A program made the translations under genes and the position numbers. A stretch of 64,000 nt of DNA from Candidatus Aenigmatarchaeota archaeon (GTDB lineage: Archaea; Aenigmatarchaeota; Aenigmatarchaeia; PWEA01). The stretch lies in contig JBKHHE010000002.1 of the NCBI GenBank assembly GCA_046539305.1, positions 35,928 to 99,927 of the forward strand. The letters are read 5' to 3'. The notes beneath the pieces are model-generated. The model was not told the origin of the DNA and made no database searches. It was given only the letters and a program-made list of their open reading frames with translations. Positions 9,531 through 61,545 of the stretch are shown here, piece after piece. How positions within the stretch are numbered: position 1 is the stretch's first letter; every line of letters begins with the position of its first letter.

Positions 9531-9669
9531 GCCGGGGTAGCGAAGCCTGGCCCACCGCGCCAGCTTGGAGACCTGAACAGAAAGCTGGTGTGCGTTATAA
9601 GATTGATGTGGTCTCGGACCACATCCTATGGCGAAGCACGCGTGGGTTCAAATCCCACCCCCGGCGCCA
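9531..9669 (+). tRNA. tRNA-Ser (anticodon GGA, class II); about 12-nt insertion after position 37 and an enlarged variable region holding a 9-bp hairpin. CCA is encoded
   Basis: Acceptor GCCGGGG/CCCCGGC; anticodon arm CCAGC-TTGGAGA...GCTGG; T-arm GTGGG-TTCAAAT-CCCAC; G discriminator then CCA. Confidence 0.65.
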
Positions 9670-27035: not shown

Positions 27036-27241
27036 GCCGGGGTAGCGAAGCCAGGTTCAACGCGCCGGATTTGAGACCGGATTTGTTGACGTGAGGATGA
27101 CAAAAGGTTTGCAAGAAATCCGGTGGGCCGTGTAGGACCTGCAGCCGCGGAAGCCCGCGTGGGTTCAAAAGAAAACCCTTTCAAAAAGTGTTTTCATTCC
27201 CAAAGGAGAAGGGGTTTCGGGAAGTCCCACCCCCGGCGCCA
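27036..27241 (+). tRNA. tRNA-Ser (anticodon TGA) with about a 42-nt intron at 37/38, an expanded variable arm and about a 56-nt insertion in the T-loop. CCA is encoded
   Basis: Acceptor GCCGGGG/CCCCGGC; anticodon arm CCGGA-TTTGAG[...]A-TCCGG; T-arm GTGGG-TTCAAA[...]T-CCCAC. Confidence 0.65.
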
Positions 27242-28597: not shown

Positions 28598-29383
28598 ATG
28601 GAGATAAAGAAGATGGAAGAGAAGAATGAAACCCTGAAGGTGCTGGTCAAAGACACGAATCCGGCTATGATGAACGCCCTTAGAAGGATCTCAATGAAAG
28701 GAATCCCTGTGCTCGCAATAGAAGACGTGGCTATTGTGAAGAACAACTCCCTCCTCTTCGACGAGGTAATAGCCCAGCGTCTGGGTCAAGTTCCCCTCGA
28801 TTTTGATCCGGACAAGTTCGAAATGCATGGGGAATGTGACTGTGAAGAAGGCTGCCCGAACTGCGAGGCAGTGTTCTCGTTAAAGGTGGAGGGACCAGGA
28901 AAGGTTTACTCTGGGGATCTTGTCTGTGAGTCAGGCGAAATCGAGCCGTTTTACGATGAAATACCTCTAACGGAGCTGGACGAAAACCAAGAGATTGAGA
29001 TGGAGGCCACGGCTATCCTGTCCACTGGAGAAGATCACTCCAAGCACCAGGCGGCTATCTCCTCATATCAGTATTATCCTATAATAAACGTGGATCAGGA
29101 TGAACTCACCAAAAAGGAGAAAAAGGAAGTAGCCGAGCTTTGTCCCCGTGGTGTGTTCGAAGTAAAGGATGGGAAGCTTGAGGTTACAGAGGAAGCAAGG
29201 TGTACGCTCTGCAGGGAGTGTGTGGAGGCAGTAGGCCCAGAAGGTATCACAGTCGCAGGAGACGATGAGAAGTTCATATTCAAGGTCGAGTCTATATCAG
29301 CGCTTGAACCTGACTGGATTATAAAAAAGACCGCTGAGATACTGGAGGAGAAGGCCGACAAGGTAATAGACAAGCTGGATTAG
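28598..29383 (+). CDS. rpoD: DNA-directed RNA polymerase subunit D
   Basis: RpoD homology with cysteine cluster (CDCEEGCPNC...CTLCREC); conserved position after S11. Confidence 0.88.
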   Translation: MEIKKMEEKNETLKVLVKDTNPAMMNALRRISMKGIPVLAIEDVAIVKNNSLLFDEVIAQRLGQVPLDFDPDKFEMHGECDCEEGCPNCEAVFSLKVEGPGKVYSGDLVCESGEIEPFYDEIPLTELDENQEIEMEATAILSTGEDHSKHQAAISSYQYYPIINVDQDELTKKEKKEVAELCPRGVFEVKDGKLEVTEEARCTLCRECVEAVGPEGITVAGDDEKFIFKVESISALEPDWIIKKTAEILEEKADKVIDKLD

Positions 29384-29559
29384 CGGGGGTAACCAAGTGG
29401 TCAAAATTGAAATTTTGACTTTCGCCAGCAAGCTGACGAAATGGTCAAAATATGGCCAAAGGTGCAGGACTTAAGGCAACTTAAGTGTTGAGGTATAAAT
29501 CCGATGATAAGAAATCCTGTGGCTTAGTGCCTTCGTCGGTTCAAATCCGGCCCCCCGCA
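29383..29559 (+). tRNA. tRNA-Leu (anticodon TAA) with about a 53-nt insertion in the D-loop and about a 38-nt intron at 37/38. Its first base is the last base of the rpoD stop codon
   Basis: Acceptor GCGGGGG/CCCCCGC; anticodon arm CAGGA-CTTAAG[...]A-TCCTG; T-arm GTCGG-TTCAAAT-CCGGC. Confidence 0.65.
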
Positions 29560-32732: not shown

Positions 32733-32852
32733 AAGGCTGGCGGCCAAAGCGGAGGGGCAACTCCCGTACCCATCCGAACACGGAAGAAAAGTCCTCCAGC
32801 GATTTGGTCAGTATCCTCAATCCGAGGAGAACTCCAGGACGCTGCCAGCCGC
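32733..32852 (+). rRNA. rrf: 5S ribosomal RNA
   Basis: GGCUGGCGGCCAAAGCGGAGGGGCAACUCCCGUACCCAUCCGAACACGGAAG...GCUGCCAGCC closes a terminal helix; matches the archaeal 5S consensus (CCGAAC, GGAAGUUAAG-like, AGCG). Confidence 0.75.
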
Positions 32853-32914: not shown

Positions 32915-33012
32915 GCCGCGATGGTGTAGCGGCTCAACTCTCGAAGAGAGGGGGCCAAGCATAGAGCCCTGTCGAGGCTCTGACCCGGGTTCAAATCCCG
33001 GTCGCGGCGCCA
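32915..33012 (+). tRNA. tRNA-Asp (anticodon GTC) with about a 22-nt insertion in the D-loop region. CCA is encoded
   Basis: Acceptor GCCGCGA/TCGCGGC; anticodon arm GAGCC-CTGTCGA-GGCTC; T-arm CCGGG-TTCAAAT-CCCGG. Confidence 0.65.
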
Positions 33013-33050
33013 ACTAACAAATGACGTGGTCCTTGACCACGTCCTCTGCC

Positions 33051-33191
33051 GGGCCCGTAGCTCAGTCTGGGAGAGCACTGGGCTTTTAAGAACACTTTGG
33101 AAAAACGTTCATGGAAAAATATTTTGATGGACCTTTTTCGAAAAGGTTCTAAGACACCCAGGAGTCGCGGGTTCAAATCCCGTCGGGCCCA
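33051..33191 (+). tRNA. tRNA-Lys (anticodon TTT) with about a 67-nt intron at 37/38
   Basis: GGGCCCG-TA-GCTC-AGTCTGGGA-GAGC-A-CTGGG-CTTTTA[intron]A-CCCAG-GAGTC-GCGGG-TTCAAAT-CCCGT-CGGGCCC-A. Confidence 0.75.
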
Positions 33192-33338
33192 TTTAAGACT
33201 TTGTGTTTGTAAACATTCATATGGTAAAATCGACGAAAGATTTGGATGAAACCTTTGGGAAGAAGAATCTTCCCAATACTTGGAACTCGGTTCCAATATT
33301 TTCTAAAGGTTTCTTCCTGGATCCCGTCGGGCCCATAA
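33192..33338 (+). repeat. 147-bp element directly 3' of tRNA-Lys(TTT), ending in a 16-bp direct repeat of the tRNA 3' end (ATCCCGTCGGGCCCAT); identical to copy 2 at 41209-41355
   Basis: Exact sequence identity of the two copies; internal 9-bp hairpin TTGGGAAGA-AGA-ATCTTCCCAA and palindrome GGAACTCGGTTCC. Confidence 0.8.
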
Positions 33339-41086: not shown

Positions 41087-41208
41087 GGGCCTGTAGCTCA
41101 GTCTGGGAGAGCGCTAGGCTCTTAACTTTTAAGAGCGCGTAATGGGACCGGTCGGTCCTTATGACGAAAGAAACCTAGAAGTCGCGGGTTCAAATCCCGT
41201 CGGGCCCA
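41087..41208 (+). tRNA. tRNA-Lys (anticodon CTT) with about a 48-nt intron at 37/38
   Basis: GGGCCTG-TA-GCTC-AGTCTGGGA-GAGC-G-CTAGG-CTCTTA[intron]A-CCTAG-AAGTC-GCGGG-TTCAAAT-CCCGT-CGGGCCC-A. Confidence 0.75.
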
Positions 41209-41355
41209 TTTAAGACTTTGTGTTTGTAAACATTCATATGGTAAAATCGACGAAAGATTTGGATGAAACCTTTGGGAAGAAGAATCTTCCCAATACTTGG
41301 AACTCGGTTCCAATATTTTCTAAAGGTTTCTTCCTGGATCCCGTCGGGCCCATAA
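41209..41355 (+). repeat. Second identical copy of the 147-bp tRNA-Lys-associated element with the 16-bp terminal direct repeat
   Basis: Identical to 33192-33338 over its full length; flanking sequence diverges immediately after ...GGGCCCATAA. Confidence 0.8.
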
Positions 41356-47082: not shown

Positions 47083-47116
47083 ACTCTTATAGTTTGAGGC
47101 CTTTCATATAAACTGC

Positions 47117-47330
47117 GCCGGCGTGGCCGAGTCAGGCTCAAGGCGGTGGATTCGAGTCCGGATATGTTGAGCAAACGCGATGAAAGAGAAACATCCACTG
47201 GGCGTTAAGGACAGAGCGCGTAGGTCTCACCTACGCCGGTCGACTAGGCCCGCGCAGGTTCAAAGGAACCTTTTTCGAAAAAAGGTTCATCAAAAAGGAG
47301 AAGGTTCGGGAAATCCTGCCGCCGGCGCCA
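47117..47330 (+). tRNA. tRNA-Ser (anticodon CGA) with three insertions: about 36 nt at 37/38, about 44 nt in the variable arm (8-bp hairpin) and about 48 nt in the T-loop. CCA is encoded
   Basis: Acceptor GCCGGCG/CGCCGGC; D-arm GCC...GGC; anticodon arm GTGGA-TTCGAG[...]A-TCCAC; variable stem GGGC/GCCC; T-arm GCAGG-TTCAAA[...]T-CCTGC; followed by an oligo-T tract. Confidence 0.65.
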
Positions 47331-47365
47331 TTTCTTTTTTTAATCATGAGATACACAGTCTCGAC

Positions 47366-48077: not shown

Positions 48078-48152
48078 GCGGTCGTGGTCTAGTGGCTAGG
48101 ACACGACCCTGCCACGGTCGTAGCCCGGGTTCAAATCCCGGCGACCGCACCA
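48078..48152 (+). tRNA. tRNA-Gly (anticodon GCC), intron-less. CCA is encoded
   Basis: GCGGTCG-TG-GTCT-AGTGGCTAGGAC-ACGACC-CTGCCAC-GGTCGT-AGC-CCGGG-TTCAAAT-CCCGG-CGACCGC-A-CCA. Confidence 0.9.
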
Positions 48153-48883: not shown

Positions 48884-49420
48884 ATGTCTGAAGGTTTCAG
48901 CAGCAGGATATATTCAGACTGGATGAAGTCTACCCAAGAGAAGAAGTACACAGAGATACTACTGGACTTTATCCTGCCCCTGAAGAATAAGTTAAATATA
49001 GAAAACTGCCGAGTTCTTGACGTCGGTGTGGGTAAAGGATGGTTTGAGAAAAAGCTGATTGAAAGAGGTATGGACGCCGAGATTGTTGGCCTGGATATTG
49101 AAAAAACCGACTTAGCCACGGAAGGCGTTAGATTAATGCTTGGATCGGGTGACAGAATACCTCTGAAAGAGGAGAGTTTTGATTTCGTGGTTTCCTTCGA
49201 TACTGTTCACCTCCTCAAGAGTCCGGAGGAGATAGAGAGGGTTCTCAGTAAAGGAGGCTACGCACTAATCACCAGCCACTGCAATGAAAGAAACTTTAAA
49301 AAGAAGAAACAAAAAATTAACTCACTGTTCGAGATGGATGTGCTGAAGGAGGGGCTAGTGGGAGACCCTCAGGAGGAAATGAGCTACGCCGTTTTGTTAA
49401 AGAAAGGGTCCGTGGTCTAG
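48884..49420 (+). CDS. Class I SAM-dependent methyltransferase. Its last 15 nt overlap tRNA-Val
   Basis: VLDVGVGKGWF (motif I) and FDFVVSF (motif II). Confidence 0.7.
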   Translation: MSEGFSSRIYSDWMKSTQEKKYTEILLDFILPLKNKLNIENCRVLDVGVGKGWFEKKLIERGMDAEIVGLDIEKTDLATEGVRLMLGSGDRIPLKEESFDFVVSFDTVHLLKSPEEIERVLSKGGYALITSHCNERNFKKKKQKINSLFEMDVLKEGLVGDPQEEMSYAVLLKKGSVV

Positions 49421-49521
49421 CGGCTGGGAATCTTTTGTAAAGGTTGGTTATAAGATTCCACGTAAATGACGTCGCCTTGACATGGCGAAGGTCCCCCGTT
49501 CAAATCGGGGCGGACCCACCA
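49406..49521 (+). tRNA. tRNA-Val (anticodon GAC) with about a 39-nt insertion in the D-loop. CCA is encoded
   Basis: GGGTCCG-TG-GTCT-AGCGGCT[insertion GGGAATCTTTTGTAAAGGTTGGTTATAAGATTCC...]TGAC-G-TCGCC-TTGACAT-GGCGA-AGGTC-CCCCG-TTCAAAT-CGGGG-CGGACCC-A-CCA; oligo-T follows. Confidence 0.7.
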
Positions 49522-58232: not shown

Positions 58233-58346
58233 ATGGACCCGGCGGGATTTGAACCCGCGGTCTCCACCATGCCAAGGTGGCGTCTTTTCGTTGGAACCTT
58301 TTGATGAATCTTTTTGGAAAAGATTCCTTCCACTAGACTACGGGCC
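58233..58346 (-). tRNA. tRNA-Ala (anticodon GGC) with about a 38-nt insertion in the D-loop
   Basis: Reverse complement gives GGGCCCG-TA-GTCT-AGTGG[insertion]AGAC-G-CCACC-TTGGCAT-GGTGG-AGACC-GCGGG-TTCAAAT-CCCGC-CGGGTCC-A. Confidence 0.7.
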
Positions 58347-58438
58347 CTGGTAAATGCTTGGAAAACAGTTTAATAAAGATTTGGGGCCGCGCAAGGGCAA
58401 GTTTTATATAGTAGCTAGCATATTATGGCATCTGTAAG

Positions 58439-60590: not shown

Positions 60591-60706
60591 TGGGCCTGCG
60601 CGGATTTGAACCGCGGATCTCCACCTCTTTTCTACGAAGTAGGAAAGTTCGAAATCCCCGATTTCGTATCGTGAAGGTGGCGTCATAGCCGCTAGACCAC
60701 AGGCCC
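60591..60706 (-). tRNA. tRNA-Val (anticodon CAC) with about a 42-nt intron at 37/38
   Basis: Reverse complement gives GGGCCTG-TG-GTCT-AGCGGCTA-TGAC-G-CCACC-TTCACG[intron]A-GGTGG-AGATC-CGCGG-TTCAAAT-CCGCG-CAGGCCC-A. Confidence 0.7.
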
Positions 60707-61330: not shown

Positions 61331-61545
61331 TGGGACCGCCGGGATTCGAACCCGAGATCTCCGGCTTCCATGCCGCGCACGACGGAATTTACCGAAAGCG
61401 AAGCTTTCGTAAAACACGAAAACCCGCGTTTTCGGCGATTTACGCGCGGTGGCCTTATAAGACCGGCGCTTTGGTCAAGTCTTTCCCTTTTTGATGAACC
61501 TTTTTTCGAAAAAGGTTCTTTCTAACCAAGCTAAGCCACGGTCCC
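61331..61545 (-). tRNA. tRNA with two large insertions (about 50 nt in the D-loop, about 89 nt at 37/38); the anticodon reads TAT, so a candidate tRNA-Ile(UAU)
   Basis: Reverse complement gives GGGACCG-TG-GCTT-AGCTTGGTT[insertion]-AAGC-G-CCGGT-CTTATA[intron]A-GCCGG-AGATC-TCGGG-TTCGAAT-CCCGG-CGGTCCC-A. Confidence 0.5.

What the first reader, a model, noticed from the sequence alone, without database searches (positions are those of the whole stretch)
47117..47330. tRNA-Ser(CGA) is interrupted three times (anticodon loop, variable arm, T-loop); other tRNAs carry one or two insertions, many at non-canonical positions
- Of the 12 tRNAs here only tRNA-Gly is uninterrupted.
- Insertions occur in the D-loop (Asp, Val-GAC, Ala, Leu, and the candidate Ile), in the variable arm (Ser-CGA, Ser-TGA, probably Ser-GGA) and in the T-loop (Ser-CGA, Ser-TGA), as well as at canonical 37/38.
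- Multi-intron tRNAs at such positions are known from only a few archaeal lineages (Thermoproteales, Korarchaeota, some DPANN) and are unexpected alongside a split rpoB.
- The variable-arm insertions in the three Ser tRNAs each form long perfect hairpins (GCGTAGGT-CTCA-ACCTACGC; GATGTGGTC-TCG-GACCACATC).
Basis: partly seen in the sequence, partly recalled or inferred. Interest (0 to 1): 0.6.

Follow-up and report, generated by a model that had tools for sequence, protein, structure and literature searches.

The report
Triple-intron serine tRNA gene, Aenigmatarchaeota
A serine tRNA gene of a small DPANN archaeon (Aenigmatarchaeota) really is broken by three short introns, and 11 of the 12 tRNA genes nearby are interrupted too; this gene structure is already known from other archaea, but here it appears in a new lineage, at very high density, and standard tRNA finders miss or mis-call it.

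Summary
Window 47117-47330 (+) is a tRNA-Ser(CGA) gene with three insertions: 47157-47192 (anticodon loop, 37/38), 47209-47247 (loop of the long variable arm) and 47265-47313 (T-loop, 59/60). Removing them gives a canonical 90-nt tRNA-Ser. Six related genomes carry syntenic orthologues with the same three insertion sites. Exons are about 96% identical, while the inserts are 81%, 69% and 53% identical. The helices expected of bulge-helix-bulge (BHB) splice motifs are kept through compensatory changes. ARAGORN's "uninterrupted" tRNA-Asp is an artefact. tRNA-Ser(UGA) also has three introns, which the title missed. The organism is a Candidatus Aenigmatarchaeota (DPANN) relative, so the split rpoB is not a conflict. 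Six introns at three different tRNA positions share one hairpin-containing sequence family, including a 33-nt identical block. The Asp and Val-GAC introns are absent from close relatives. Together this looks like the intron spread described in Thermoproteales. Verdict: a new member of a known kind. Excision by the splicing endonuclease is inferred, not shown.

The parts
47085..47095 (+). Putative archaeal TATA/BRE promoter element (CTCTTATAGTT) about 25-30 nt upstream of the tRNA 5' end
   Evidence: The motif AAWTYCTTATA sits at the same distance upstream in all 7 orthologous loci (read directly). Promoter function is inferred.
47117..47330 (+). tRNA-Ser(CGA) gene: four exons and three introns, with G73 and CCA encoded
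   Evidence: Syntenic orthologues are in L002, L003, L004, L005, L126 and L128.
47117..47156 (+). Exon 1: acceptor 5' strand, D-arm, anticodon stem 5' strand and loop positions 32-37 (anticodon CGA)
   Evidence: ARAGORN cloverleaf of the spliced product. Exons are at least 94% identical across 7 genomes.
47157..47192 (+). Intron 1, 36 nt, canonical position 37/38. Relaxed motif (hBH/BHL-like): a 3-nt 3' bulge, a central helix UUCG/AGAA (3 of 4 pairs here, 4 of 4 in 5 orthologues), and an inner helix of only 1-2 bp
   Evidence: register maximum, 26 of 28; RNAalifold; the intron's 3' segment covaries with the anticodon loop in Ser-CGA, Ser-UGA, Ser-GGA and Leu-UAA.
47193..47208 (+). Exon 2: position 38, anticodon stem 3' strand, variable-arm 5' strand and loop (UGGGC GUUAA)
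47209..47247 (+). Intron 2, 39 nt, between the last loop nucleotide and the 3' strand of the long variable arm. Central helix CGUU/GACU (3 of 4 pairs), outer helix 4 bp, inner helix GAC/GUC, plus an 8-bp hairpin GCGUAGGU-CUC-ACCUACGC (47219-47237)
   Evidence: register maximum, 23 of 28; hairpin with 5-6 covarying pairs; 31 of 36 central-helix pairs; U-A changes to G-C in L126 and Ser-UGA. All three Ser isoacceptors have an intron at this site.
47248..47264 (+). Exon 3: variable-arm 3' strand, T-stem 5' strand and T-loop positions 54-59 (GCAGG UUCAAA)
47265..47313 (+). Intron 3, 49 nt, T-loop position 59/60, with a full hBHBh' motif: T-stem as outer helix, central helix UUCA/GGGA (3 of 4 pairs), and an inner helix GAACCUU.../...AAGGUUC. 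It contains the 33-nt block GAACCTTTTTCGAAAAAAGGTTCATCAAAAAGG (47266-47298), shared with the D-loop intron of tRNA-Ile(UAU)
   Evidence: (89.7% of cells paired, 9 pairs with changes on both sides, 0 of 500 shuffles reach this, slid controls at most 63%).
47314..47330 (+). Exon 4: U60, T-stem 3' strand, acceptor 3' strand, G73, CCA; followed by a T-run (47331-47341)
27036..27241 (+). tRNA-Ser(UGA), the second three-intron gene. Introns: 27076-27117 (37/38), 27134-27152 (variable arm), 27170-27224 (T-loop 59/60)
   Evidence: the spliced 90-nt product is called tRNA-Ser(tga); central helices pair 4/4, 4/4 and 3/4.
9531..9669 (+). tRNA-Ser(GGA), two introns: 9571-9582 (37/38, 12 nt) and 9599-9635 (variable arm, with hairpin GATGTGGTC-TCG-GACCACATC)
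   Evidence: ARAGORN -i mis-calls this gene as tRNA-Pro.
29383..29559 (+). tRNA-Leu(UAA), two introns: 29405-29459 (D-loop) and 29476-29513 (37/38)
   Evidence: The D-loop boundary was chosen by BHB pairing and D-loop length; no orthologue was available to check it.
32915..33012 (+). tRNA-Asp(GUC) with a 22-nt D-loop intron at 32937-32958 (central helix GGCU/GGCC 4/4, inner helix 5 bp, no outer helix: HBh' type)
   Evidence: Alignment A1: the insert is present in the window and L005 and absent in L002, L003 and L004..
33051..33191 (+). tRNA-Lys(UUU), one anticodon-loop intron at 33090-33156 (67 nt) belonging to the GAAC-hairpin family
   Evidence: The introns at this site in L002-L005 are unrelated in sequence.
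41087..41208 (+). tRNA-Lys(CUU), one anticodon-loop intron at 41125-41172
49406..49521 (+). tRNA-Val(GAC), one D-loop intron at 49426-49465 (40 nt, inner helix 8 bp)
   Evidence: L003 and L004 have the same gene without the insert (ARAGORN and Rfam call them intact)..
58234..58347 (-). tRNA-Ala(GGC) with G3:U70, one D-loop intron at 58288-58327 (40 nt, inner helix 9 bp)
60591..60706 (-). tRNA-Val(CAC), one anticodon-loop intron at about 60627-60669. The exact boundary is uncertain: only 2 of 4 central-helix pairs form in the register used
61331..61545 (-). tRNA-Ile(UAU), two introns: D-loop 61471-61521 (51 nt) and anticodon loop 61366-61454 (89 nt)
   Evidence: The D-loop boundary is one of three BHB-compatible registers.
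48078..48152 (+). tRNA-Gly(GCC), the only uninterrupted tRNA gene in the window

Best explanation
47117-47330 is a functional tRNA-Ser(CGA) gene. It is most likely transcribed as one precursor from a TATA-box promoter about 30 nt upstream. The precursor carries three protein-spliced, BHB-type introns in three separate arms: the anticodon loop (37/38), the loop of the long variable arm, and the T-loop (59/60).

In each arm the intron pairs with the adjacent exon to form a 4-bp helix. The two cleavage sites lie 2 nt 3' of that helix on either strand. The T-loop and variable-arm introns form bulge-helix-bulge motifs with flanking helices. The anticodon-loop intron forms a relaxed bulge-helix-loop.

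By analogy with all known archaeal tRNA introns, the tRNA splicing endonuclease (EndA) cuts at these six sites and RtcB ligase joins the four exons into a 90-nt class II tRNA. Because the three motifs are local and do not overlap, they can be processed independently.

The gene is one case of a lineage-wide load: 18 introns in the 12 tRNA genes of this window. Part of that load comes from a recently spreading intron family.

Shown here: the exon/intron architecture, its conservation, covariation of the helices, and insert polymorphism among relatives. Inferred: transcription as one precursor, cleavage by EndA, ligation, and the order of events.
For: 1. Splicing in silico gives a canonical 90-nt tRNA-Ser(CGA) with G73 and a long variable arm, in the window and in L002-L005. 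L126 and L128 yield the same 90 exon nucleotides.
2. Seven genomes (rpoA'' 75-77% identical, downstream HAD gene 55-72% identical) have three inserts at identical sites. Exons average 96% identity; inserts average 81%, 69% and 53%.
3. Among registers shifted by up to 4 nt on either side, the register that yields the canonical tRNA gives the most central-helix pairs for the anticodon (26 of 28) and variable-arm (23 of 28) introns. For the T-loop intron (23 of 28) it is the best of the registers that give the same product.
4. Covariation. For the T-loop motif, 89.7% of cells pair, 9 pairs change on both sides, 0 of 500 shuffles reach this, and slid controls reach at most 63%. The variable-arm hairpin and central helix covary. 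The 3' end of each anticodon-loop intron tracks the anticodon loop it must pair with: UUCG/CGAA, UUUG/CAAG, UUGG/ACAG, CUUA/UAAG.
5. The same treatment turns all 12 genes into canonical tRNAs, with 62 of 72 central-helix positions paired.
6. For Asp and Val-GAC, intron-free orthologues define the junctions exactly where the BHB rule puts them.
7. Precedent: archaeal tRNAs carry up to three introns; 59/60, D-loop and variable-region sites are known; and a 59/60 intron of a DPANN archaeon (ARMAN-2) was cut in vitro by its EndA (PMC4033280, PMC4090602, PMC8450103, PMC3239211, PMC4307357).
Against: - No RNA data exist. Cleavage sites rest on the BHB rule and on comparison with relatives.
- In this window all three central helices have one mismatch (3 of 4 pairs).
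- The anticodon-loop intron has almost no inner helix (1-2 bp), so its 5' site lies in a loop. Such relaxed motifs need a broad-specificity EndA.
- The EndA of this lineage was not found. No EndA or RtcB domain matched any of the 40 window ORFs scanned, nor any gene in the tables of the loci fetched with the look-up of encoding contigs.
- BHB-like candidates are plentiful by chance within the gene, so the motif alone would not be convincing.
- An alternative helix (intron GGAUGU with ACAUCC at the 3' junction) competes with the anticodon stem.
Confidence: 0.9

Rival explanations
1. The locus is a decaying pseudogene, a tRNA-Ser gene disrupted by three junk insertions and no longer used.
For: Standard detectors do not recognise the unspliced locus. 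All three central helices carry one mismatch in this genome.
Against: Exons are 94-100% identical across 7 genomes while the inserts diverge to 34-76% (T-loop). The few exon changes keep pairing (C6-G67 to U6-G67; GGGC to GGGU in the variable stem). The insert helices covary. The promoter motif and the encoded CCA are conserved. The other Ser isoacceptors have the same architecture.
Confidence: 0.03
2. The inserts are real, but they are either kept in the mature RNA as arm expansions or removed by a route other than EndA/BHB splicing.
For: Excision has not been observed. The anticodon-loop motif is relaxed. No EndA gene was seen in the DNA examined.
Against: A 49-nt insert in the T-loop and a 36-nt insert next to the anticodon are incompatible with the tRNA L-shape and with decoding (established tRNA structure). 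The inserts are far too short for group I or group II introns, and no Rfam intron family matches them. The 4-bp helix plus 2-nt offset geometry is kept at 18 sites and covaries, which is exactly what EndA recognises.
Confidence: 0.04
3. The exon/intron boundaries are partly wrong: different registers, nested introns, or a different anticodon.
For: Repeated bases at the junctions (AAA at the T-loop, G at the variable arm) allow several cuts to give the same product. Elsewhere in the window several registers are BHB-compatible (Ile and Leu D-loop introns), and Val-CAC pairs poorly (2 of 4). The Leu D-loop intron contains an internal second BHB-like pairing.
Against: For Ser-CGA the chosen registers are the maxima over 7 genomes and give a product of standard length with a standard 7-nt T-loop and anticodon loop. 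Registers that only shift within repeated bases give the same mature tRNA.
Confidence: 0.1
4. The structure is an assembly or binning artefact of a metagenome-assembled genome.
For: The source is an uncultivated MAG lineage.
Against: The same architecture is present in 7 independent assemblies from NCBI, ENA and Logan, with conserved flanking genes.
Confidence: 0.01

Closest known systems
Multiple-intron tRNA genes of Thermoproteales (e.g. Pyrobaculum calidifontis, Thermofilum pendens; Sugahara 2007/2008, as summarised in PMC4033280 and PMC8450103)
   Same: Up to three BHB introns per tRNA gene, at canonical plus D-loop, variable-region and T-loop positions, with relaxed motifs at the non-canonical sites. 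The density is comparable: 18 introns in 12 genes here (1.5 per gene, a sample only), against 71 in 46 genes for the record holder P. calidifontis and a mean of 0.84 for Thermoproteales (PMC8450103).
   Different: A different superphylum (DPANN, Candidatus Aenigmatarchaeota) with a split rpoB. The endonuclease type is unknown here, whereas Thermoproteales use a heterotetramer with a Crenarchaea-specific loop. Only 12 genes of this genome were seen.
Intron transposition among Thermoproteales tRNAs (Fujishima et al. 2010, as described in PMC4033280 and PMC4090602)
   Same: Near-identical intron sequences sit in unrelated tRNAs at different structural positions. One family is found in Ser-CGA T-loop, Ser-UGA T-loop, Ile D-loop, Ala D-loop, Val-GAC D-loop and Lys-UUU anticodon-loop introns, with a 33-nt identical block. 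Introns are present or absent between close relatives (Asp, Val-GAC).
   Different: The shared module is a hairpin with a tail (GAACCUUUUU-CGAA-AAAAGGUUC-AUCAAAA). In some hosts it forms the inner BHB helix; in others (Ile) it lies in the interior of the intron. So it may spread as a module within introns rather than as whole introns. Neither mechanism nor direction was tested.
Disrupted tRNA genes of other DPANN archaea (ARMAN-2 / Candidatus Micrarchaeum; PMC3239211, PMC5829648)
   Same: A DPANN lineage with many interrupted tRNA genes, including 59/60 T-loop introns; one was cut in vitro by the ARMAN-2 endonuclease. tRNA-Ile(UAU) is present there too. DPANN endonucleases with an extra loop correlate with more disrupted tRNA genes.
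   Different: ARMAN-2 has 56% disrupted genes and two-intron tRNAs. Here 11 of 12 genes are disrupted and two have three introns. The searchable literature holds no analysis of tRNA introns in Aenigmatarchaeota.
Variable-region introns (position 45/46; Aeropyrum pernix tRNA-Lys, PMC4307357, PMC4090602)
   Same: [quoted passage not shown]
   Different: Here the intron sits inside the loop of the long variable arm of a class II tRNA, at the same site in all three Ser isoacceptors and in 7 genomes. I could not establish whether this exact site has been described before.

Membership tests
Archaeal protein-spliced (BHB) tRNA intron | Removing the insert restores a canonical cloverleaf tRNA | tested here: met
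   ARAGORN calls all spliced products canonical tRNAs. Ser-CGA is 90 nt with a 7-nt anticodon loop, a 7-nt T-loop and a long variable arm.
Archaeal protein-spliced (BHB) tRNA intron | A 4-bp central helix between the 5' exon end and the intron 3' end, with both cut sites 2 nt 3' of the helix (3-nt bulges) | tested here: met
   Ser-CGA in the window pairs 3 of 4 at each of the three sites; orthologues pair 4 of 4 at many. Totals: anticodon loop 33/36, variable arm 31/36, T-loop 26/32. The register is the maximum over 7 genomes. Across all 18 window introns, 62 of 72 positions pair.
Archaeal protein-spliced (BHB) tRNA intron | Flanking helices h (exon-exon) and h' (intron-intron), as in the strict hBHBh' motif | tested here: inconclusive
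   T-loop intron: both are present (h 5 bp, h' 7-11 bp, covarying). Variable-arm intron: h 4 bp, h' 0-3 bp plus an internal hairpin. Anticodon-loop intron: h 7 bp, but h' only 1-2 bp, so it is a relaxed hBH/BHL form.
Archaeal protein-spliced (BHB) tRNA intron | Cleavage by the tRNA splicing endonuclease EndA and ligation by RtcB | not testable with these tools
   This needs RNA sequencing or an in-vitro assay. The precedent for a 59/60 intron in a DPANN archaeon is PMC3239211.
Archaeal protein-spliced (BHB) tRNA intron | The genome encodes an EndA able to cut relaxed motifs at non-canonical positions | not tested
   Pfam found no EndA or RtcB domain in the 40 window ORFs scanned or in the gene tables of the loci fetched with the look-up of encoding contigs.
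Multiple-intron tRNA (maximum three per gene) | Two or three separate introns in one colinear tRNA gene | tested here: met
   There are three in Ser-CGA and Ser-UGA, and two in Ser-GGA, Leu-UAA and Ile-UAU. No gene exceeds the known maximum of three (PMC8450103).
Transposing tRNA-intron family (Thermoproteales type) | Significantly similar intron sequences in non-homologous tRNAs and at different positions | tested here: met
   six introns are linked, each with shuffle p = 0/200; a 33-nt identical block is shared by the Ser-CGA T-loop intron and the Ile D-loop intron.
Transposing tRNA-intron family (Thermoproteales type) | Recent gain: an intron present in one genome and absent from the orthologous gene of close relatives | tested here: met
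   The Asp intron is in the window and L005 but not in L002-L004. The Val-GAC intron is in the window but not in L003 or L004. The Lys-UUU intron was replaced by a family member. Gain versus loss is not polarised.
Split or permuted tRNA gene | Exons encoded at separate loci or in permuted order | tested here: not met
   All exons are colinear within 214 nt, and there is one conserved upstream promoter motif.
Group I / group II self-splicing intron | A ribozyme core of at least about 200 nt that matches Rfam models | tested here: not met
   The inserts are 12-89 nt long, and no Rfam intron family hits them even at E-values up to 10.

The most novel reading that the evidence does not exclude
This Aenigmatarchaeota clade may have undergone a burst of tRNA-intron proliferation independent of Thermoproteales. 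It reaches about 1.5 introns per gene and includes an insertion site inside the long variable arm of all three tRNA-Ser isoacceptors. The burst would be driven by a mobile hairpin-containing intron module that is still active. Signs of recent activity are the identical 33-nt block in two genes, and introns gained or replaced between genomes whose rpoA'' proteins are 75-77% identical. Several introns also contain a copy of the adjacent upstream exon (for example the 9-nt repeat CCGGATTTG in Ser-UGA). That hints that local duplication or templated copying, not only transposition, creates new BHB introns. If so, closely related MAGs with and without a given intron would make the unknown mechanism of archaeal tRNA-intron gain directly testable.
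Probability: 0.35. Interest if true: 0.6.

Novelty: new member of a known kind. Interest (0 to 1): 0.4.

Why it matters
1. Annotation. Default ARAGORN finds 2 of the 12 tRNA genes and calls one of them wrongly. Rfam finds 7 and misses all three tRNA-Ser genes. ARAGORN in intron mode mislabels Ser-GGA as Pro, and Val-GAC and Ala-GGC as Trp. In DPANN MAGs such misses are read as 'missing tRNAs', lower completeness, or lost decoding capacity. Kaneta et al. (PMC5829648) already warned that unidentified disrupted tRNA genes remain in DPANN.

2. Evolution. Very dense tRNA-intron loads have so far been linked mainly to Thermoproteales. A second, unrelated lineage with the same signature (three-intron genes, one intron family at different positions, presence/absence between relatives) would show the process is general. 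It would also supply natural before-and-after pairs for studying how BHB introns are gained.

3. Enzymology. The relaxed motifs at D-loop, variable-arm and T-loop sites predict a broad-specificity splicing endonuclease in Aenigmatarchaeota. That prediction can be checked.

Tried and rejected
- Metagenome scan with the exon-4 pattern CCTGCCGCCGGCGCCA. None of the loci it returned carries the Ser exon 1 or the T-arm.
- Orthologues of the Ala/Val-CAC/Ile cluster, sought through the neighbouring phosphate transporter. The best homologues are only about 60% identical, come from mixed lineages and are not syntenic. Whether the Ile D-loop intron is recent therefore stays untested.
- Search for the splicing machinery. 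Pfam scans of 40 window ORFs found a ribosomal-protein/EF/SecY/Cbf5/RNA-polymerase/eRF1 region but no EndA or RtcB.
- Alternative reading of GGATTCGAGTCC (47148-47159) as a T-arm, and a BHB at 47166-47198. Rejected because the flanking helix is not conserved in L003 and the product is not a tRNA (plus hand comparison).
- The 128-nt element after both tRNA-Lys genes read as a further (T-loop) BHB intron. Rejected: at most 1 of 4 central-helix pairs form at the 58/59 or 59/60 registers (checked by hand).
- A viral-contig scan for that element found nothing.
- A K-loop (C'/D'-like) reading of the conserved UGUUGA...GAUGA in the anticodon-loop introns. Not rejected, but weak: in L002, L126 and L128 the UUGA/CUGA lies in the loop of a GGAUG/CAUCC hairpin, and L126 has AAUGA. 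It is kept only as a passing note.
- Loci L002-L005 could not be read from the Python sandbox. Their Ser genes were copied by hand.
Full report
**What is at the coordinates.**
- Window 47117-47330 (+) starts with GCCGGCG and ends with CGCCGGC-G-CCA. That is a perfect 7-bp acceptor stem with the G73 discriminator and an encoded CCA.
- Between these ends lie a class II D-arm, an anticodon arm (GUGGA-UUCGAG...A-UCCAC), a variable arm (GGGC...GCCC) and a T-arm (GCAGG-UUCAAA...U-CCUGC). Three of them, the anticodon arm, the variable arm and the T-arm, are each interrupted by extra sequence.
- Default ARAGORN and the Rfam tRNA model both miss the locus, even in a 350-nt sub-search at E-values up to 10.
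- Deleting 47157-47192 (36 nt), 47209-47247 (39 nt) and 47265-47313 (49 nt) leaves 90 nt. ARAGORN folds that as a textbook tRNA-Ser(CGA) with a 4-bp variable stem and 5-nt variable loop.

**Source organism.**
- The rpoA'' protein of the window is 75-77% identical to four Candidatus Aenigmatarchaeota MAGs.
- The HAD-family gene just downstream of the tRNA is 100% identical to a protein NCBI annotates as Aenigmatarchaeota, in assembly GCA_046545755.1.
- NCBI places this phylum in Nanobdellati, the DPANN group.
- A contig that carries the identical rpoB' gene shows the same split rpoB gene pair.

**Comparative test.**
- The region is syntenic in the four MAG loci. Two more loci were reached through homologues of the HAD gene. 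All six carry an orthologous tRNA-Ser(CGA) gene.
- Every one has three inserts at exactly the same three sites. L126 and L128 yield the same 90 exon nucleotides as the others.
- Exon identity averages 96% (minimum 94%). Insert identity averages 81% (anticodon loop), 69% (variable arm) and 53% (T-loop), and T-loop insert length ranges from 37 to 101 nt.
- The few exon substitutions preserve pairing (C6-G67 to U6-G67; variable stem C-G to U-G).
- This pattern is selection on a spliced product. It excludes a pseudogene or an assembly artefact.

**Splice motifs.** I applied the standard BHB geometry: a 4-bp helix formed by the last exon bases (minus two) and the last intron bases (minus two), with cleavage 2 nt 3' of the helix on each strand.
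- Among all registers shifted by up to 4 nt on either side, the register that yields the canonical tRNA gives the most central-helix pairs summed over 7 genomes for the anticodon (26 of 28) and variable-arm (23 of 28) introns. For the T-loop intron (23 of 28) it is the best of the registers that give the same product. The only higher value there is the T-stem pairing with itself.
- The T-loop intron forms a full hBHBh' motif. On 8 sequences, 89.7% of cells pair and 9 pairs change on both sides. None of 500 shuffles reaches this, and slid controls reach at most 63%.
- The variable-arm intron has a 4-bp outer helix, a central helix with compensatory changes (U-A becomes G-C in L126 and in Ser-UGA), and an inner hairpin with 5-6 covarying pairs.
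- The anticodon-loop intron shows the anticodon stem, a 3-nt 3' bulge and the central helix, but almost no inner helix. Its 5' site therefore lies in a loop, a relaxed hBH/BHL form.
- Its 3' segment tracks the anticodon loop it must pair with in four different tRNAs: UUCG/CGAA, UUUG/CAAG, UUGG/ACAG and CUUA/UAAG.
- In this particular genome each of the three central helices has one mismatch. Several relatives have perfect 4-bp helices.
- Thermodynamic folding of the precursor reproduces the outer and inner helices of the variable-arm and T-loop motifs, and leaves the splice sites in internal loops.

**The other tRNA genes.** After removal of the proposed inserts, all 12 are called canonical tRNAs.

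| tRNA gene | Introns | Positions |
|---|---|---|
| Ser-GGA | 2 | anticodon loop, variable arm |
| Ser-UGA | 3 | anticodon loop, variable arm, T-loop |
| Leu-UAA | 2 | D-loop, anticodon loop |
| Asp | 1 | D-loop |
| Lys-UUU | 1 | anticodon loop |
| Lys-CUU | 1 | anticodon loop |
| Ser-CGA | 3 | anticodon loop, variable arm, T-loop |
| Gly | 0 | none |
| Val-GAC | 1 | D-loop |
| Ala-GGC | 1 | D-loop |
| Val-CAC | 1 | anticodon loop |
| Ile-UAU | 2 | D-loop, anticodon loop |

- That makes 18 introns in 12 genes: 8 anticodon-loop, 5 D-loop, 3 variable-arm and 2 T-loop.
- 62 of 72 central-helix positions pair, against roughly 37% expected by chance.
- ARAGORN's uninterrupted tRNA-Asp is wrong. Rfam gives it 21 bits, against 61.9 bits for the intact orthologues. 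Alignment A1 shows a 22-nt D-loop insert (32937-32958) in the window and L005 that is missing in L002-L004. Its central helix (GGCU/GGCC) pairs at all four positions (G-C, G-C, C-G, U-G) and its inner helix is 5 bp.
- The 40-nt D-loop insert of Val-GAC is likewise absent from L003 and L004.
- Some boundaries elsewhere remain uncertain: the Ile and Leu D-loop introns and the Val-CAC intron.
Three small corrections apply: Ser-UGA also has three introns, the quoted Ser-CGA hairpin has a 3-nt loop, and the short Ser-UGA variable-arm intron has no long hairpin.

**Intron family and turnover.**
- All-against-all comparison of the 18 introns links six of them: Ser-CGA T-loop, Ser-UGA T-loop, Ile D-loop, Ala D-loop, Val-GAC D-loop and Lys-UUU anticodon loop. 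They share the module GGAAYCUUUUU-CGAA-AAAAGRUUC-AUCAAAA, and none of 200 shuffles reaches the observed scores.
- The Ser-CGA T-loop intron and the Ile D-loop intron share 33 identical nucleotides.
- The Lys-UUU intron of the window belongs to this family, whereas the introns at the same site in L002-L005 are unrelated in sequence.
- Together with the Asp and Val-GAC polymorphisms, this is the signature described as large-scale intron transposition in Thermoproteales (PMC4033280, PMC4090602).

**Comparison with what is known.**
- Archaeal tRNA genes are known to carry up to three introns.
- Non-canonical sites include 20/21, 22/23, 45/46, 53/54, 56/57 and 59/60.
- The record density is 71 introns in 46 genes in Pyrobaculum calidifontis. 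The means are 0.84 per gene in Thermoproteales and 0.21 across archaea (PMC4090602, PMC8450103).
- Among DPANN, ARMAN-2 has 56% disrupted genes, and one of its 59/60 introns was cut in vitro by its endonuclease (PMC3239211).
- DPANN endonucleases with an extra loop correlate with more disrupted genes, and unidentified disrupted tRNA genes were predicted to remain in DPANN (PMC5829648).
- No paper in the searchable library deals with tRNA introns in Aenigmatarchaeota.
- The finding is therefore a new member of a known kind. It shows a notable density (1.5 per gene in this sample, 11 of 12 genes interrupted). Its intron site inside the long variable arm is shared by all three Ser isoacceptors, and I could not place that site in the literature.

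**Mechanism and its limits.**
- One precursor is probably made from the conserved AAWTYCTTATA box about 30 nt upstream and ends at the T-run after the CCA. This is read directly.
- The three local motifs should be cut by EndA and the exons joined by RtcB, as in all studied archaea. This step is inferred.
- The relaxed motifs predict a broad-specificity endonuclease. None is encoded among the 40 window ORFs scanned or in the gene tables of the loci fetched with the look-up of encoding contigs, and the rest of the genome was out of reach.

**What led nowhere.**
- Synteny through the phosphate transporter failed.
- A viral scan for the tRNA-Lys flanking element was empty.

Noticed in passing
window 33179-33338 and 41196-41355: Both tRNA-Lys genes are followed by the same roughly 128-nt sequence, bounded by a 16-nt direct repeat of the tRNA 3' end (ATCCCGTCGGGCCCAT). 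The 188-nt repeat is 98% identical between the two loci. The element is absent after tRNA-Lys(CUU) in L002-L005. It folds into a long helix in which the second copy of the tRNA 3' end pairs with an internal segment (z = -4.3). It does not fit a BHB intron, and a viral-contig scan found nothing. It looks like an att-type target duplication by a small mobile element, or gene conversion between the two Lys genes.
   Followed up: partly
window 47266-47298 (+) and 61486-61518 (-); also 58288-58327, 49426-49465, 33090-33156, 27170-27224: One hairpin-containing intron family (GGAAYCTTTTT-CGAA-AAAAGRTTC-ATCAAAA) occupies T-loop, D-loop and anticodon-loop introns of six different tRNAs. A 33-nt identical block is shared between Ser-CGA and Ile-UAU.
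   Followed up: partly
window 32938-33012: ARAGORN reports an uninterrupted tRNA-Asp here, using part of the D-loop intron as a false acceptor strand. The true gene is 32915-33012, with a 22-nt intron. ARAGORN -i also mislabels Ser-GGA (9531) as Pro, Val-GAC (49406) and Ala-GGC (58347) as Trp, and Ile-UAU (61545) as Ser.
   Followed up: yes
window 27065-27090; 29465-29490; 29395-29455; 47257-47290: Some introns contain a copy of the exon sequence just upstream. In Ser-UGA, CCGGATTTG (9 nt) is repeated 3 nt downstream. In the Leu anticodon-loop intron the copy is ACTTAAG. In the Leu D-loop intron it is TGGTCAA(AAT). In the Ser-CGA T-loop intron it is AGGTTCA. Four of 36 tests reach shuffle p < 0.025. 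This could be a trace of how the introns arose (local duplication), or it could be chance.
   Followed up: partly
window 47164-47186 (also 27084-27101 and 29485-29507; orthologues in L002-L005, L126, L128): The anticodon-loop introns of Ser-CGA, Ser-UGA and Leu-UAA share UGUUGA(G/C), then 8-13 nt, then GAUGA. This resembles box D'/C' of a K-loop. The 6-8 nt before UUGA can pair with positions 38-43, and the N+5 rule would then point at U39. However, in three orthologues the UUGA lies in a hairpin loop, and L126 has AAUGA (by eye). This is speculative.
   Followed up: partly
window 61331-61545 (-): A tRNA-Ile with anticodon UAU, rather than the usual archaeal CAU/agmatidine solution for AUA codons. 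The same was reported for ARMAN (PMC3239211). This hints that the lineage lacks TiaS.
   Followed up: no
all 12 tRNA genes: CCA is encoded in 6 genes (Ser x3, Asp, Gly, Val-GAC) and not in the other 6 (Lys x2, Leu, Ala, Val-CAC, Ile).
   Followed up: no
L002 3505-3712 and L005 3505-3712, versus window 33013-33050: Relatives carry a small cysteine-rich ORF between tRNA-Asp and tRNA-Lys(UUU). It is missing in the window, where the two genes lie 38 nt apart.
   Followed up: no
window 29405-29459: The 55-nt D-loop intron of tRNA-Leu contains a second, internal BHB-compatible pairing (GGUC/GGUC, 44-nt register). This suggests a nested or duplicated intron.
   Followed up: no
window 32736-32850: A 5S rRNA gene lies directly upstream of the tRNA-Asp / tRNA-Lys pair and of the rpoH-rpoB''-rpoB'-rpoA'-rpoA'' cluster. 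The 5S rRNA gene, the tRNA-Asp and tRNA-Lys(UUU) genes and rpoA'' keep the same order and spacing in L002-L005.
   Followed up: no
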